DNA of 64,000 nucleotides from a virus (Duplodnaviria > Caudoviricetes), in the IMG/VR virus record IMGVR_UViG_3300048631_000217. The stretch is one strand, 5' to 3'. Each line of letters begins with the position of its first letter. Position 1 is the first letter of the stretch. The translations under genes and the position numbers were made by a program. The notes beneath the pieces were generated by a model that saw only the letters and a program-made list of their open reading frames with translations, was not told the DNA's origin and did no database searches. Shown here one piece after another: positions 28,225-46,220 of this stretch.

Positions 28225-28413
28225 TCACCCGTTCAGTTGCACGATCTCATTGAGCCATTGCGCGGCCTTTGCTTCGGCTAGGGACAGGGTTTCGACCATT
28301 TCTTGACGGGTCGGGGAACCTTCTGCATCGAAGAATTCAACGCGATAGGTATTGGCTTCCTTGTGGATGGATACATGTCCCCGATTCGGGTCGGCGATTT
28401 GTCTCACTAACAT
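28225..28413 (-). CDS. Hypothetical protein
   Basis: Start re-placed at ATG 28413 (MLVRQIADP) behind AAGAGG; the longer start lies inside the tmRNA. Confidence 0.6.
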   Translation of the reverse strand: MLVRQIADPNRGHVSIHKEANTYRVEFFDAEGSPTRQEMVETLSLAEAKAAQWLNEIVQLNG

Positions 28414-28434
28414 ATCATTATACCTCTTGTTTTG

Positions 28435-28835
28435 GGAAGGTGAGGTGTTTCTGTTTCTAGGCACACCCCAAAGCCCACAGACCTTACGCCACTAGGGCAG
28501 TCTTAGGAGCAAAGTTTTCGTTTGCCTCTATTGGTTTGTTGCGTTAACGCAGCTTCCGCGCGTAGTCTCCACACACCGTCCAATGTCTGTCGATCCTAGT
28601 ATCAGGCCCATCAAAAACACATAAAGGGATTTAAACTACTCTCGCCGCTCGGGTCAAACGGATCTCCGGTTTATCATCCCGGTGTTCTATGGCGGCTTCC
28701 TAGACCACCATTACCCATTCCCTTTTTCGGATGTTTCATTTCTAGGAAAAATGCCACATCCTATATGTGCTTTTGGTGGACCTGTGCGGTACTGCCCCGC
28801 AGTCCAGACCATCTTCAAGTCGCTTCATCGACTAT
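28435..28835 (-). ncRNA. ssrA: Circularly permuted two-piece tmRNA: acceptor piece about 28835-28774, intervening segment 28773-28610, coding piece 28609 to about 28435
   Basis: T-arm TGCGG-GGCAGTA-CCGCA followed by CAGGTCC-A-CCA. Downstream GGGCCTG ATACTAGGATCGAC pairs with it as a 7-bp acceptor stem with G3.U70. Tag frame 28525-28484 reads ANENFAPKTALVA*. Promoter TTGACG-17-TATATA upstream. Outer ends are approximate. Confidence 0.93.
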
Positions 28836-28875
28836 GTTAGTTATATAGTATGTTTCGAATCTCTCGTCAAGTGTC

Positions 28876-30446: not shown

Positions 30447-31382
30447 TCAAGATACCCAATCGACGTTATCTGGCACGTATTTGGCAATTTTGCGTCTCAC
30501 ATCATCACTTAATTCCGAAACACTACGCGGAGGTTTCCCGGTTTTCTTGACCTCGACATAATCGACCAAGCTAAAGTAACCGCCTCTATACTCACCTTTC
30601 TTGCCGGTGTACATGTTGGCGTCTTTCATACTCGCCTGACCTTCACGTCGCGGATCACCCTTCTCCCGACTAACCCAAGTGTTGTCAAATAGTTTATTAG
30701 GGATATCAACCTTGTTGAACGCGAATACAATCTCCCCGTCCATGTATTTACTGATACCCTTACCCATGTTGATGATATCGTACAAGGTGTTGGACGCACC
30801 TCTATGTGTGTTGATCAGAATCTCGACAGGCACGGTTCTAGGACGTTTCTTGTTCAGTCTGACAGCAACTTCAATATCGTTAACGATCCATACGATATGG
30901 ATGTTCTTCTTGTCGTATCCGATTTGTGAAACCTGTGTACAGATCTTGTCAAGTTTATAGAAGTCTTTTAACGTAACGTCGAAGATGATGTTGGGTCTAC
31001 GTTCGGCGTTGGCAGACAGAAGAGACCTGAATAAAGCCTGTTGCCTGCGATTGTCCAGATTAAGCACATCGGCGACGACATAATGCAACTTCGAAACGTT
31101 TTCCGGGTTTTTCATGTTATCGGCCAAAGACTTGATATCAATGTTGTAGTCTTTTTTGAGTCTGGAAATGATAGTCGGAGTGGCCGCAGCCAGCTTCTTC
31201 AACTCGTCAACGTCGAACTTGAACCCTTCTACCCCGATCAGCTTGTCATAGACATAGCCTTTTCCGCTGGCAGCACCACCCGCCAGAATGACGACTTGAC
31301 CGAATCTTGGGTAAGCCTTACCAGCAAAGGTGATCAGCTTTTCGCTTAGTTCCTGATACCCGAAATCAATGAATCCTTGCAT
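30447..31382 (-). CDS. P-loop kinase/NTPase (zeta-toxin/AAA_33-like)
   Basis: VVILAGGAASGKG Walker A; NIIFDVT; CTAAATA box upstream. Confidence 0.65.
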   Translation of the reverse strand: MQGFIDFGYQELSEKLITFAGKAYPRFGQVVILAGGAASGKGYVYDKLIGVEGFKFDVDELKKLAAATPTIISRLKKDYNIDIKSLADNMKNPENVSKLHYVVADVLNLDNRRQQALFRSLLSANAERRPNIIFDVTLKDFYKLDKICTQVSQIGYDKKNIHIVWIVNDIEVAVRLNKKRPRTVPVEILINTHRGASNTLYDIINMGKGISKYMDGEIVFAFNKVDIPNKLFDNTWVSREKGDPRREGQASMKDANMYTGKKGEYRGGYFSLVDYVEVKKTGKPPRSVSELSDDVRRKIAKYVPDNVDWVS

Positions 31383-31419: not shown

Positions 31420-33855
31420 CTATTTAGGGTCAGGCTTCTTTACCGTCAATTCACCTTTCTTGATCTTGTCGGAAATCGACTTCATGGTGTCTTTATCTAC
31501 CAGACTGGTTGACCATTTGCCGTCTGCGGTCTTCTGGCCTTTCTTGGCTTCGTTCATCAGGAATTCTCCAAAGCTTTTTACTCTCATAGATTCTACCACG
31601 TATTGTTGTAGGGTGTCAATGTAGGAATTGGCCGCGTTGCCGATATAGACTGCCTTGATATGGTGCTTATCACCAACTTCCGCTATCTCGACCGGGCGGA
31701 TGATCGACATTGGGGGCAGGATAACCTCTTTCTCGTGATTCACATCCGAGAACGTAAGGATAGGTAAAACATGCGCACCTTCAGGAAGGTATATCGTCAA
31801 CCGTGAGTTGCCAGAACTACCATAAGAAATTTCCTCATTAAGTGATGTTGACATAAAGCCGGGGTCAATGATATCATCGCCGATACCGTAATCTTGCACA
31901 TTAGGTATATTTGCGTTACGAAACACCCATGTAGGCGCTTTCAGGGGGCCTATCCGTTCCATGAAACTGATGATATTTTTGACATGTTCGAAATCAGACT
32001 TATCTACAAATTTGACATCTTTTGAGTAGTTACCTCTTAGGAGAGTGTTGATATACGCGTAATCCGTGCCGGTGTATTTAAATACCGAAGAAAATTCTCG
32101 GAAGTGTTCTTTCTTGGCTTTGGAAATACTTTCTTCGTACCCTAGTTTTAAGAAATAAAGTTCGCGCGTATTGACATCTTTCTGTTGTTTCGGAGTAAAG
32201 GCGAAATGATTCACTTCAGAAAAGACGATTTCTGAGAATCCGTTACCTTCAGGAAGCGGGAATTCTAAATCAACATCGGCTTTAATTCTACTTTTGGTAG
32301 AATTTTGTATATCGTAACTAAGACTTTCAAGTTCGTTGTATTTACTTACAATTTGTGAATATAGTTTTAAACCATCTTTTGTATCGCGAATGAAATTTAT
32401 CGAATCTAGTGTCTTTTTTAGTAACTGTTCATCCTTCAATTCCCCATTATCGTCTAACAAAACTTTCTTTAAGAAGCTGGGTTTACTGCCTTCTTTAGAT
32501 AAAAAATTCTTAACGGTCGTAGTCGATAAATGACGGCTAAACCCCACCGCCGCCAACAAAGACGCCAGATCAGTCTTTCCGTCATCCAGATACTTCTTTA
32601 ACTGGTCTTGCGCCTGTTCCAACTTCGTTTGGTATTCGATAACTTTTTCGTTGGGTGGTAATTCGATAGTCTTCGCCTTCAGCTTGTTGCTGATATCGAA
32701 CACCTTTCGGCCCTCTTCGGTATCCACCAAAGACACTTCGTAACCCTTGAAATGGTATTTGGCCGAAGGTTTCAGGTTTGGTTTGCGTGGGATGCGGCGC
32801 TTGGGTTCAAGTTCATCTAATGTTTCGGCATTGACTCCGAAATCGTATCCCTTGTAGGCTTTGGTCTTGAACACTGTGTTAGGCGAATAACCTTTCTTGA
32901 TGATGAAGATGAACGATTTTCCGCCTTTGAAATAATCGTTGTACTTTACAGGAACATCCTCGAATTTCGAGACAAGTGCCCGCTTGATCAATCTCTTGGT
33001 GAACGTGTTGAAACGGGGGCTGGCGACGTTCTTCGGCACCGATATCGTTATCCCCTTGACTTGGCTTTGGATGAACATCAAAGACGCCTGAATCACATAG
33101 ACGAATGTTGACAGGGCCGGGCGGATATGGCTCGTTTTCTTGAATGACCACAACCGTTTGTTGACGTTGACGATCCGGTTCAACTCAGCAAGATAGATTC
33201 CCGACTTCGAACTACGCACCAGTGATATCAGGTACTTGTCTGAATCAATCTCGAACGCCGCATGAATGGCGTCAGGAATACGTGTATCTTCGGTCATATA
33301 GGTTTCGACCGGGCTGTTCAACGACTCGTCTAACTGATCGAATTCGTCTAGGACAGTGCTTTCCTCAACCTTCTTGTAGGCATCCACTATCACGACCTTG
33401 GGAGTCAGCCCCATCATGAAGGCGATATCCAACCGGGTGTTGCCGCCCATGATACGCAAGCGCCCATCCCGGAACCGCAGCACAATCGGCATGTTCATCG
33501 GTTGATTGTCTTCGAACGCCTTGAAGATACCGTCAATGGTCTTCTCGTTACGGTATTTCGGATAGGACGCATACCCTTTGATAAGGTCGATCAAGTCTTC
33601 CTTGGACGTGGTATTGCTGCGATATGACACCTGACGATCAAGGCTTTTGGTCAGGCGAGTCACCTCGCCTGCCTTGTAAGCTTTCTTGAAGTCTTCGAAT
33701 GTCGGCCACACATCACCTGTCATGGATTTCAAGGGCTTGATTGTATATTCTATGTCATATTCATGACGTAGCGCCTTGTCATCCATCTTCTGCCATCTGT
33801 TATAGTTGACAGATTCGTTCAGGAAGTCTTTGAAACCGCGTGGTCCTGTAGCCAT
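31420..33855 (-). CDS. Alt-like ADP-ribosyltransferase, probably head-packaged
   Basis: YTG.DYAYINTLLRG, WVFR, GFMSTS, HEKEVILP (R-S-E triad); FKDFLNES and KSFGEFLMNEA motifs. Confidence 0.8.
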   Translation of the reverse strand: MATGPRGFKDFLNESVNYNRWQKMDDKALRHEYDIEYTIKPLKSMTGDVWPTFEDFKKAYKAGEVTRLTKSLDRQVSYRSNTTSKEDLIDLIKGYASYPKYRNEKTIDGIFKAFEDNQPMNMPIVLRFRDGRLRIMGGNTRLDIAFMMGLTPKVVIVDAYKKVEESTVLDEFDQLDESLNSPVETYMTEDTRIPDAIHAAFEIDSDKYLISLVRSSKSGIYLAELNRIVNVNKRLWSFKKTSHIRPALSTFVYVIQASLMFIQSQVKGITISVPKNVASPRFNTFTKRLIKRALVSKFEDVPVKYNDYFKGGKSFIFIIKKGYSPNTVFKTKAYKGYDFGVNAETLDELEPKRRIPRKPNLKPSAKYHFKGYEVSLVDTEEGRKVFDISNKLKAKTIELPPNEKVIEYQTKLEQAQDQLKKYLDDGKTDLASLLAAVGFSRHLSTTTVKNFLSKEGSKPSFLKKVLLDDNGELKDEQLLKKTLDSINFIRDTKDGLKLYSQIVSKYNELESLSYDIQNSTKSRIKADVDLEFPLPEGNGFSEIVFSEVNHFAFTPKQQKDVNTRELYFLKLGYEESISKAKKEHFREFSSVFKYTGTDYAYINTLLRGNYSKDVKFVDKSDFEHVKNIISFMERIGPLKAPTWVFRNANIPNVQDYGIGDDIIDPGFMSTSLNEEISYGSSGNSRLTIYLPEGAHVLPILTFSDVNHEKEVILPPMSIIRPVEIAEVGDKHHIKAVYIGNAANSYIDTLQQYVVESMRVKSFGEFLMNEAKKGQKTADGKWSTSLVDKDTMKSISDKIKKGELTVKKPDPK

Positions 33856-45571: not shown

Positions 45572-46220
45572 GGATTTCAACGTAACAACTGGAAGAAATC
45601 GTGTCACGGTATTGACCGGCTTCGATATAACATTCACCGAAGAAATGGCTTGCGCCGGTAATTGATGTATTCCCGGTTACTTCTACATTATCATCAATTC
45701 GTGCGTCCCCCGAAACACTAGCCTTCCCCGAAACACGAGCATTCCCCGAAACACGAGCATTCCCCGAAACACGAGCATTCCCCGAAACACGAGCATTCCC
45801 CGAAACACGAGCATTCCCGGCAACACGAGCATACTCAGAAACCTGAGCCTGACCCGAAACCTGAGAATTCCCGGAAACACGAGCCTGACCCGAAACCCGA
45901 GCCTCCCCCGAAACATGTGCATTCGTGAAAACCCGAGCCTGCCCGAAAACACGAGCATCCGGCCCGATATAGGCGGTTTCGGCGACGGTCGCGGTGTTCG
46001 CGACCCAACCGCCACCATTCGGGTGTTGATGGGCCGGGACCGGGCCTTGGCCGAAATCGTGAGTTTTCACAAAATCATACAAGTTCCTACCAATGTAACA
46101 CCTCTCCAACATTTTTTGAGTAGCGTTACCTAGATCAATTTCTTCATCGAGTGCTATGTCACCGACACGCACAGAGTTGACGATATCTTTTTCGTCAGCT
46201 TTCACAAAAATTTTCATCAT
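45567..46220 (-). CDS. Hexapeptide-repeat protein, type III (N-terminal extension), 217 aa
   Basis: HDFGQGPVPAHQHPNGGGWV + repeated ARVSGN units. Confidence 0.85.
   Translation of the reverse strand: MMKIFVKADEKDIVNSVRVGDIALDEEIDLGNATQKMLERCYIGRNLYDFVKTHDFGQGPVPAHQHPNGGGWVANTATVAETAYIGPDARVFGQARVFTNAHVSGEARVSGQARVSGNSQVSGQAQVSEYARVAGNARVSGNARVSGNARVSGNARVSGNARVSGKASVSGDARIDDNVEVTGNTSITGASHFFGECYIEAGQYRDTISSSCYVEIP

What the first reader, a model, noticed from the sequence alone, without database searches (positions are those of the whole stretch)
28610..28773. tmRNA intervening segment hides a 164-nt multi-stem RNA with perfectly complementary kissing loops
Seen (minus strand): the ends pair (AAAGCACATA/TATGTGTTTT). 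Hairpin 1 (28761-28729) has loop UUCCUAG. An AAAGGGA/UCCCUUU stem encloses hairpin 2 (28711-28689, 8 bp with two G.U) with loop CUAGGAA, plus two smaller stems. The two 7-nt loops are exact reverse complements. Established: the intervening segment of permuted tmRNA is excised by tRNA-processing nucleases and is short in the well-studied Caulobacter case. Inference: the phage uses tmRNA maturation to release a second, stable, tertiary-folded RNA. It could fold by an intramolecular kiss or form hand-in-hand oligomers as phi29 pRNA does, and might serve as a decoy or antitoxin-like RNA. I do not recognise the family.
Basis: partly seen in the sequence, partly recalled or inferred. Interest (0 to 1): 0.85.

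Follow-up and report, generated by a model that had tools for sequence, protein, structure and literature searches.

The report
Folded non-coding insert in phage tmRNA spacer
The cut-out spacer of this phage's two-piece ribosome-rescue RNA (tmRNA) gene carries a 140-base, non-coding, well-folded insert with no relatives in any collection searched, so the proposed "kissing-loop" RNA with a job of its own is possible but cannot be tested by comparison.

Summary
Window 28439-28874(-) is a circularly permuted tmRNA gene in a T4-like phage. Its intervening segment (IVS, 28773-28610, 164 nt) folds as described, and the two 7-nt loops (UUCCUAG, CUAGGAA) are exact reverse complements.

The context changes the reading. 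In 144 related permuted tmRNA genes the IVS is 4-277 nt long (median 66), so 164 nt is not exceptional. The paired ends are a conserved closing hairpin. That hairpin alone is the whole 25-32 nt IVS in the closest tmRNA relatives and in Cupriavidus. The window's 140-nt interior is therefore a lineage-specific insertion in the hairpin loop.

This loop is a cargo slot. 34 of 41 long IVSs hold a small protein gene, and one 87-nt IVS family is a conserved two-hairpin RNA. Earlier reports of this scan found the same slot on other DNA. The window's insert has no ORF, no Rfam match and no homologue, and the only other copy found is 100% identical. Loop covariation therefore cannot be tested.

Loop complementarity of this strength occurs in 0.3-0.5% of control segments, about eight places in this window.

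Verdict: a real structured, non-coding IVS insert; a separate function and a kissing fold are unproven.

The parts
28842..28870 (-). Sigma-70-like promoter TTGACG (28870-28865), 17-nt spacer, TATATA (28847-28842). The predicted start is near 28835.
   Evidence: Read. The strict scan did not score it because the -10 box ends in A. The same TTGACN-N17-TATANT type occurs 14 times in the window against 0.37 expected. Promoter function is inferred.
28774..28834 (-). tmRNA acceptor piece: T-arm UGCGG-GGCAGUA-CCGCA, acceptor 3' strand CAGGUCC, discriminator A and encoded CCA (28776-28774).
   Evidence: ARAGORN permuted tmRNA. Rfam RF04321 103.5 bits and RF01849 81 bits.
28610..28773 (-). Intervening segment (IVS), 164 nt, absent from the mature tmRNA.
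   Evidence: It lies in the insert column of both Rfam alignments.
28764..28773 (-). 5' strand of the conserved closing helix (AAAGCACAUA).
   Evidence: Pairs with 28623-28614, most pairs at probability 0.9 or more and the two end pairs at 0.54 and 0.59. The same helix is conserved in more than 60 related genes.
28729..28761 (-). Hairpin 1: a 6-bp stem, a 2x2 internal loop and a 5-bp stem, with loop UUCCUAG at 28748-28742.
   Evidence: Pair probability is about 1.0. Two further weak pairs can close the loop to CCU.
28719..28724 (-). AAGGGA, the 5' strand of the stem that encloses hairpins 2-4. Its partner UCCCUU is at 28629-28624.
   Evidence: Centroid structure. Probability is 0.7-0.8.
28689..28711 (-). 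Hairpin 2: 8 bp including two G.U pairs, with loop CUAGGAA at 28703-28697.
   Evidence: Probability is about 0.99.
28666..28682 (-). Hairpin 3 (CCGG/CCGG, 4 bp).
   Evidence: Probability is 0.74.
28645..28661 (-). Hairpin 4 (CCGUUUG/CGAGCGG, 7 bp, triloop).
   Evidence: Probability is 0.74.
28610..28623 (-). 3' strand of the closing helix (UAUGUGUUUU) plus the conserved single-stranded UGAU leader that ends at the predicted RNase P site (28610|28609).
   Evidence: UGAU directly before G+1 is present in nearly all listed subfamily IVSs; one, L186, ends in UGAA. RNase P cleavage is inferred from what is known of the family.
28439..28609 (-). tmRNA coding piece: acceptor 5' strand GGGCCUG (G3.U70), the CUAGGAUCGAC motif and the tag reading frame 28525-28484 (ANENFAPKTALVA*).

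Best explanation
The 164 nt are the intervening segment of a phage-borne, circularly permuted (two-piece) tmRNA gene, and they have two layers.

(1) A 10-bp closing helix plus a UGAU leader, conserved across this tmRNA subfamily. In the precursor it continues the acceptor stem and presents the RNase P site. On its own it is the complete 25-32 nt IVS of the closest relatives.

(2) A 140-nt, lineage-specific, non-coding insertion in the loop of that helix. Related phages use this position as an exchangeable cargo slot, mostly for small protein genes.

The insert is co-transcribed with the tmRNA from a sigma-70-type promoter. It folds into a self-contained three-way-junction domain (hairpin 1, plus an AAGGGA/UCCCUU stem carrying hairpins 2-4). 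It leaves the precursor when RNase P cuts at 28610|28609 and the acceptor piece is trimmed back to its CCA.

What the compact fold most safely does is act in cis. It keeps 140 extra bases from interfering with the tRNA-like domain and holds the two acceptor strands together. The 7-nt loop complementarity may add a tertiary clamp between the two arms, or it may be coincidence.

Shown: gene identity, boundaries, absence of an ORF, robustness of the predicted fold, insertion relative to relatives, and the slot behaviour of the site. Inferred: transcription start, nuclease steps, the cis role, and any persistence of the excised RNA.
For: - Gene identity and boundaries: ARAGORN and two Rfam models.
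- IVS length: 4-277 nt, median 66, in 144 alpha-type permuted genes.
- Closing helix and UGAU leader are conserved while the interiors are unrelated.
- The closest tmRNAs, L182 and L190 (73-81% identity over the mature parts), have a 25-nt IVS that is the hairpin only. Cupriavidus has a 32-nt hairpin.
- Slot behaviour: 34 of 41 IVSs of 110 nt or more have a sense ORF covering at least 70% of the IVS, against 14 of 41 antisense.
- The ORF families are conserved at protein level across diverged tmRNAs. One hits Pfam DUF6356 above its cut-off.
- Melnitz phage has an unannotated IVS ORF.
- A conserved non-coding two-hairpin IVS family also exists.
- The window IVS has no sense ORF inside it. The longest internal one is 21 codons without a Shine-Dalgarno sequence.
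- The fold is robust: z -3.85 and -3.13, with the helix probabilities given above. It persists as a separate domain when the whole precursor is folded.
Against: - There are no expression or processing data for this phage.
- A purely cis role does not explain why 140 nt are kept when relatives manage with a 25-nt hairpin. Phage genomes are compact and the slot usually holds functional cargo, which favours a function for the insert itself.
- The 7-nt loop complementarity is rarer than chance for a pre-specified segment, at 0.3-0.5%.
- The interior fold z-score ranks third of 50 long IVS interiors.
Confidence: 0.5

Rival explanations
1. The insert is a functional, stable RNA manufactured by tmRNA maturation. 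RNase P and the 3'-end nucleases release a 164-nt RNA whose paired ends protect it. The folded RNA then acts in trans as a decoy, regulator or protein partner.
For: - Exact 7-nt loop complementarity: 14 of 3000 shuffles and 8 of 2322 natural windows reach it.
- Both hairpins are predicted with probability near 1.
- The two arms are of similar length from the three-way junction. One runs about 11 bp plus an internal loop; the other runs 6 + 8 bp. Side-by-side docking is therefore geometrically plausible (inference).
- Opening loop 1 costs 1.8 kcal/mol, against -7.6 kcal/mol for the loop duplex.
- The slot usually holds functional cargo.
- A different 87-nt IVS family in 10 contigs has two hairpins with conserved, 5-nt complementary loops (UCACC/GGUGA) and covarying stems. 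Structured IVS RNAs under selection therefore exist.
- Earlier scan notes describe a 278-nt structured IVS RNA and free-standing IVS hairpins carrying RNA cargo. These notes are unchecked leads.
Against: - It rests on a single sequence. No homologue was found in any collection, and the only other copy is identical. There is therefore no covariation evidence.
- Only 1 of 77 IVSs of 60 nt or more has a loop-loop match of 6 nt or more, and that one is the window. At a chance rate of 0.3-0.5% about 0.2-0.4 are expected, so the count is compatible with chance.
- About seven other places in this window score as well.
- The MFE is unremarkable against the phage's own DNA, at the 9th percentile.
- Coding IVSs reach similar z-scores.
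- There is no Rfam family, including pRNA.
- There is no evidence of stability.
Confidence: 0.3
2. The insert is a relic. It is either a former small-gene cargo of the slot that has lost its reading frame, or a neutral insertion carried along because the IVS is discarded anyway. On this view the fold and the loop match have no selected role.
For: - Most long IVSs are coding and this one is not.
- IVS interiors turn over fast and are unrelated between close tmRNAs.
- The MFE lies within the normal range for this genome.
- The loop match is within what chance produces per window.
Against: - No remnant of a long frame or of a Shine-Dalgarno plus ATG start is visible. The longest internal frame is 21 codons.
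- There is no similarity to any of the IVS proteins or DNA collected.
- The fold z-score is well below shuffles.
- Dead sequence is usually lost quickly from phage genomes (general knowledge).
Confidence: 0.15
3. The insert regulates tmRNA maturation. Loop 1 (UCCUAG) can also pair with CUAGGA in the conserved CUAGGAUCGAC motif at the 5' end of the coding piece. Loop 2 (CUAGGAA) nearly copies that motif. The insert could therefore switch between masking the tRNA-like domain and masking itself, which would time the processing.
For: The sequences are read directly. CUAGGA lies at +11 to +16 of the coding piece (28599-28594), and the motif is conserved across the family.
Against: - A 6-mer match to a roughly 430-nt RNA is expected by chance about 10% of the time (my estimate).
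- The whole-precursor fold does not use this pairing.
- Relatives with the same motif have unrelated IVSs or none.
Confidence: 0.05

Closest known systems
Circularly permuted two-piece tmRNA genes (Rfam RF04321 tmRNA_permuted, RF01849 alpha_tmRNA). They were first described in Caulobacter by Keiler, Shapiro and Williams 2000, as cited in PMC9004378 and PMC11915505.
   Same: The gene order is acceptor piece with encoded CCA, then IVS, then coding piece with a tag frame. The acceptor stem has G3.U70 and the T-loop is of the alpha type. Both covariance models score above their gathering thresholds.
   Different: The IVS is 164 nt, against roughly 30 nt in the Rfam alpha consensus. The gene sits in a T4-like phage behind a sigma-70-type promoter.
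tmRNA genes of aquatic T4-like phages (OM43 phage Melnitz, pelagimyophages; PMC9004378)
   Same: The synteny is the same: tmRNA, then late-transcription coactivator, then gp59 loader, then gp32. Both have the closing helix and a long IVS. Melnitz has a 142-nt IVS.
   Different: The Melnitz IVS holds an unannotated small ORF, and a glutamine riboswitch lies after the gene. The window's IVS is non-coding and no riboswitch is present. There is no nucleotide similarity.
IVS cargo noted in the tmRNA database paper (PMC11915505): a tRNA-Ala gene in one IVS and a repetitive element in another
   Same: Extra, non-tmRNA sequence is housed in the IVS and removed at maturation.
   Different: Those are recognisable elements. 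The window's insert matches no known RNA family or repeat.
L178-type 87-nt IVS RNA, found here in 10 metagenomic and viral contigs
   Same: It has the identical closing-helix 5' strand AAAGCACAUA. It has two hairpins inside the IVS with complementary loop segments, and it has no ORF.
   Different: That family shows conservation and stem covariation, with 5-nt complementary segments in large loops. A covariance model built from it does not recognise the window's IVS (5 bits, E about 1).
   Same: Two hairpin loops have Watson-Crick complementarity. The window's loops are 7 nt and fully complementary, as in RNA I/RNA II. The two arms come off a three-way junction, as in the purine riboswitch.
   Different: No sequence or covariance-model similarity exists. 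pRNA and the riboswitch families are in Rfam and gave no match. There is no experimental or comparative support for the contact.

Membership tests
Permuted two-piece tmRNA (RF04321 / RF01849) | Covariance-model score above the curated threshold | tested here: met
   RF04321 scores 103.5 bits against a gathering score of 47. RF01849 scores 81 bits against 50.
Permuted two-piece tmRNA (RF04321 / RF01849) | Permuted order: acceptor piece ending in CCA lies upstream, and the coding piece with the 5' acceptor strand lies downstream | tested here: met
   ARAGORN reports tmRNA*. CCA is at 28776-28774 and GGGCCUG starts at 28609.
Permuted two-piece tmRNA (RF04321 / RF01849) | Alanine identity pair G3.U70 in a 7-bp acceptor stem | tested here: met
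   GGGCCUG pairs with CAGGUCC across all 7 positions, with G.U at the third pair.
Permuted two-piece tmRNA (RF04321 / RF01849) | Tag reading frame starting with an Ala resume codon and ending in a hydrophobic tail | tested here: met
   ANENFAPKTALVA*, 28525-28484.
Permuted two-piece tmRNA (RF04321 / RF01849) | Precursor is cut into two pieces and the IVS is removed | not testable with these tools
   No read data are available. This is inferred from the family.
Phage tmRNA IVS carrying a small protein gene | Sense-strand ORF with a Shine-Dalgarno sequence and a start codon, filling most of the IVS | tested here: not met
   The longest internal frame is 21 codons without a Shine-Dalgarno sequence. 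The window is one of 7 of 41 long IVSs without such an ORF.
   5.1 bits, E 0.94, covering the closing helix only.
phi29 pRNA and other Rfam families (ribozymes, riboswitches, Y RNA, tRNA) | Covariance-model match | tested here: not met
   Nothing better than 13.7 bits or E 0.76 appeared in a permissive scan of 28600-28785. ARAGORN finds no tRNA in the IVS.
Kissing-loop RNA (functional class) | Loop-loop pairing kept by compensatory change in homologues | not testable with these tools
   No homologue was found. The only other copy is identical.
Kissing-loop RNA (functional class) | Complementarity beyond chance | tested here: inconclusive
   0.47% of shuffles and 0.34% of natural windows reach it. 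Among IVSs, 1 of 77 does.

The most novel reading that the evidence does not exclude
The loop of the tmRNA closing hairpin is a general phage platform for making extra gene products from a stable-RNA precursor. In this phage the product is not a protein. It is a new 164-nt RNA released by RNase P and tRNA 3'-end processing, and it folds through a 7-bp intramolecular kiss between two arms of a three-way junction (or oligomerises through the same loops). It then acts in trans during early infection.
Probability: 0.2. Interest if true: 0.75.

Novelty: new variant of a known kind. Interest (0 to 1): 0.4.

Why it matters
The IVS of permuted tmRNA genes is treated as throw-away sequence. In aquatic T4-like phages it behaves as an exchangeable cargo slot. 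This was seen again here and, independently, in earlier reports of this scan on other genomes. I found no description of it in the papers I could search.

The present case would be one of the few where the cargo is a structured non-coding RNA rather than a small gene. If the excised RNA is stable, tRNA-processing enzymes would serve phages as a promoter-free, terminator-free way to produce defined small RNAs.

As it stands, the window adds one orphan example without comparative or expression support.

Tried and rejected
Searches for homologues of the IVS or the tmRNA (all negative or uninformative):
- blastn of the 501-nt tmRNA region against 50,697 phage records gave no match.
- The exact 32-mer of the tRNA-like domain in IMG/VR gave none. 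One pattern with a miscounted spacer was wasted.
- The degenerate T-arm/CCA pattern gave 120 loci, and the subfamily pattern gave 55.
- blastn of the IVS against all loci found nothing beyond 13-28-nt chance matches.
- The two-loop pattern in the metagenome collection gave 0 hits.
- The acceptor-plus-closing-stem pattern in the metagenome collection gave 33 loci, none sharing the interior.
- The same pattern in 185,579 bacterial and archaeal genomes gave mostly chance hits. The true ones (Cupriavidus) have a 32-nt IVS, and none matches the interior.

Searches through neighbouring proteins:
- The exonuclease has one 99% relative, on a contig that stops before the tmRNA. The next relatives are at about 54% identity and have no tmRNA nearby.
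- An exact-protein look-up found contig L300, which is 100% identical over 6125 nt.
- The four flanking proteins are singleton 90% clusters.

Other negative checks:
- A permissive Rfam scan of the IVS gave noise only.
- There is no repeat of the IVS, and no free-standing copy of its closing hairpin, elsewhere in the window.
- Model R1, built from the L178-type IVS, does not match the window.

Rejected readings:
- Hidden ORF: no frame is present.
- Self-cleaving ribozyme, riboswitch, tRNA or Y RNA: no Rfam or ARAGORN hit.
- Internal promoter or terminator: the scan found none in the IVS.

Unavailable:
- The Keiler 2000 and Sharkady 2004 papers are not held.

Full report
WHAT IS THERE

The window is part of a T4-like phage. 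gp32, a gp59-type helicase loader, a gp46/47-type exonuclease and an Alt-like ADP-ribosyltransferase flank the site. ARAGORN calls a permuted tmRNA at 28393-28866(-) with the tag ANENFAPKTALVA. Rfam gives tmRNA_permuted 103.5 bits and alpha_tmRNA 81 bits, both above threshold. The encoded CCA is at 28776-28774 and the coding piece starts at G28609. The 164 nt at 28773-28610 are therefore exactly the intervening segment (IVS). A TTGACG-N17-TATATA promoter-like site lies at 28870-28842. This promoter type is strongly over-represented in the window, with 14 sites against 0.37 expected.

CHECK OF THE OBSERVATION

All the stems and both loops are as described. It scores -49.5 kcal/mol against an MFE of -51.7. 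Helix probabilities are about 1.0 (hairpin 1), 0.99 (hairpin 2), 0.9 or more for most closing-helix pairs (0.54 and 0.59 at its two end pairs), 0.8 (AAGGGA/UCCCUU) and 0.74 (hairpins 3 and 4).

The MFE closes loop 1 further with a U.G and a U-A pair. Freeing the 7-nt loop costs 1.8 kcal/mol, and the loop-loop duplex is worth about -7.6 kcal/mol. The fold is more stable than shuffles, with z -3.85 for the whole IVS and -3.13 for the interior. It persists when the whole precursor is folded.

There are two cautions:
- The MFE is only at the 9th percentile of 164-nt windows of this phage's own DNA.
- Loop-loop complementarity of 7 nt or more, allowing two closing pairs to open, occurs in 14 of 3000 shuffles and in 8 of 2322 natural windows of this 64 kb.

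The match is therefore unusual for a segment chosen in advance. It is also something a reader of 64 kb will meet several times.

CONTEXT FROM RELATIVES

I collected alpha-type permuted tmRNA genes from IMG/VR with two degenerate patterns. I measured the IVS as the distance from CCA to the complementary 5' acceptor strand. Across 144 genes the IVS is 4-277 nt, with a median of 66 and a 90th percentile of 174. So 164 nt is long but not exceptional.

In the subfamily with the window's acceptor stem (CAGGUCC), every IVS begins with (U/A)AA(A/G)CACAU. Nearly all end with GUGUG(U/C)UU(A/U/C)UGAU. The interior differs completely between lineages.

The tmRNAs closest to the window's are L182 and L190, at 73% identity over 179 nt of the coding piece and 81% over 67 nt of the acceptor piece. 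Their IVS is 25 nt, AAAGCACAUAAUGUGUGUUUCUGAU, which is the closing hairpin alone. Cupriavidus chromosomes carry the same kind of 32-nt hairpin.

The new part is a 140-nt insertion in its loop.

THE LOOP IS A CARGO SLOT

Of 41 distinct IVSs of 110 nt or more, 34 carry a sense ORF covering at least 70% of the IVS. Only 14 do so on the antisense strand. Several of these ORFs form protein families conserved across diverged tmRNA genes:
- L041 and L072 are 63% identical over 62 aa, while 60 of 189 nt differ.
- L012 and L054 are 77% identical.
- L022 hits Pfam DUF6356 above its cut-off.
- The cultured phage Melnitz has a 142-nt IVS with an unannotated ORF, 74% identical to that of L090. Part of that similarity lies in the conserved tmRNA 5' region.

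A non-coding example also exists. An 87-88-nt IVS in 10 contigs has two hairpins with invariant loops containing UCACC and GGUGA. Its stems change in a compensatory way, and it occurs in tmRNAs with different acceptor stems.

Earlier reports of this scan reached the same slot picture on other genomes. They also mention a 278-nt structured IVS RNA and free-standing IVS hairpins. I treated those notes as leads. The ORF pattern was already visible in my own data before I read them, and no free-standing hairpin copy exists in this window.

The tmRNA database paper mentions only a tRNA-Ala and a repetitive element in IVSs (PMC11915505). The Melnitz paper mentions a glutamine riboswitch after the gene (PMC9004378; confirmed).

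THE WINDOW'S INSERT

It is one of the seven long IVSs without a sense ORF, and the longest of them. The longest internal frame is 21 codons with no Shine-Dalgarno sequence. It matches no Rfam family even at E of 10 or less, and it has no repeat in the window.

It has no homologue in any collection searched:
- phage records
- IMG/VR
- the metagenome collection
- one genome per prokaryotic species

The only other copy, L300, is 100% identical over 6.1 kb. The flanking proteins are singleton clusters. A covariance model of the L178-type IVS does not recognise it.

Across the family, the window is the only one of 77 IVSs of 60 nt or more with a loop-loop match of 6 nt or more. Kissing loops are thus not a recurrent theme by this measure. 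One case in 77 is about what a 0.3-0.5% chance rate would give.

INTERPRETATION

I commit to the following reading (about 0.5). The IVS is the conserved closing hairpin plus a lineage-specific, non-coding cargo insert. The insert folds into a self-contained three-way-junction domain and leaves the precursor at maturation. Its compact fold acts at least in cis, by keeping the acceptor strands together.

In its favour:
- the rarity of the loop match
- the similar arm lengths
- the compactness of phage genomes
- the fact that the slot normally carries functional cargo, including at least one conserved structured RNA

Against it:
- it rests on a single sequence
- there are no expression data
- the folding energy is ordinary relative to the genome

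A decayed or neutral insert gets about 0.15. A maturation switch through the CUAGGA motif gets about 0.05.

NOVELTY AND SCORE

Permuted tmRNA genes, phage copies of them and occasional IVS cargo are known. The slot behaviour has been seen repeatedly by this scan on other DNA, but I did not find it in the papers searched. This window adds an orphan, non-coding, well-folded insert, which makes it a new variant of a known kind. Without homologues or RNA data the kissing-loop claim stays a hypothesis. I score interest at 0.4.

Noticed in passing
L041:1647-1835(-), L072:241-429(-), L012:2881-3024(-), L054:2465-2602(-), L149:4365-4532(+), L066:5211-5432(-), L022:8744-8935(+): Small protein genes of 35-82 codons, with a Shine-Dalgarno sequence and a start codon, fill the IVS of many phage permuted tmRNA genes. 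34 of 41 IVSs of 110 nt or more have a sense ORF, against 14 of 41 antisense. Several form conserved families, and one hits Pfam DUF6356. Many frames end only inside the tmRNA 5' acceptor strand (...VFMMGLN*). RNase P cleavage would therefore leave a stop-less message.
   Followed up: partly
L301:1486-1627 (Methylophilales phage Melnitz MZ577097.1, record 46077-46218): The cultured phage Melnitz has a 142-nt tmRNA IVS with an unannotated ORF (L301:1505-1669), 74% identical to the IVS ORF of L090. The L041-type IVS protein exists in Melnitz as free-standing gene 85, directly upstream of the tmRNA. The same small genes therefore occur both inside and beside the IVS.
   Followed up: partly
L178:7661-7747(+), L299:282-368(-), L292:4109-4196(+), L293, L294-L298, L206:5922-5994(+): A conserved non-coding 87-88-nt IVS RNA has two hairpins, invariant loops (CUCACCUGAAAUAG and AUAGUGGUGAAG, with UCACC and GGUGA complementary) and compensatory stem changes. 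It occurs in tmRNA genes with different acceptor stems and has no Rfam match.
   Followed up: partly
IMG/VR loci L034, L041, L067, L130-L171 (75 nt upstream of CCA): The marine phage tmRNA genes of this subfamily are preceded by the T4 late-promoter box TATAAATA. The window's gene instead has a sigma-70-type TTGACG-N17-TATATA. Timing of tmRNA expression may therefore differ between phage lineages.
   Followed up: no
window 12281-63865, 14 sites: TTGACN-N16-18-TATANT promoter-like sites occur 14 times against 0.37 expected. Most are TTGACAAA...CCTATATT on the minus strand. This agrees with other first-reader notes on a repeated promoter-leader cassette.
   Followed up: no
window 31420-33855(-) and 30447-31382(-): An 811-aa protein has an ADP-ribosyltransferase exoenzyme-type domain (PF03496 in the stored annotation of the L300 gene table, weak PHROG hit), probably an Alt-like packaged enzyme. 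Next to it is a 311-aa protein of PHROG 5268 with a faint Zeta_toxin hit.
   Followed up: no
L206:5995-6086: This metagenome contig ends in an Illumina adapter sequence (AGATCGGAAGAGCACACGTCTGAACTCCAGTCAC...). Its last roughly 90 bases are an assembly artefact, and the 3' part of its IVS is unreliable.
   Followed up: yes
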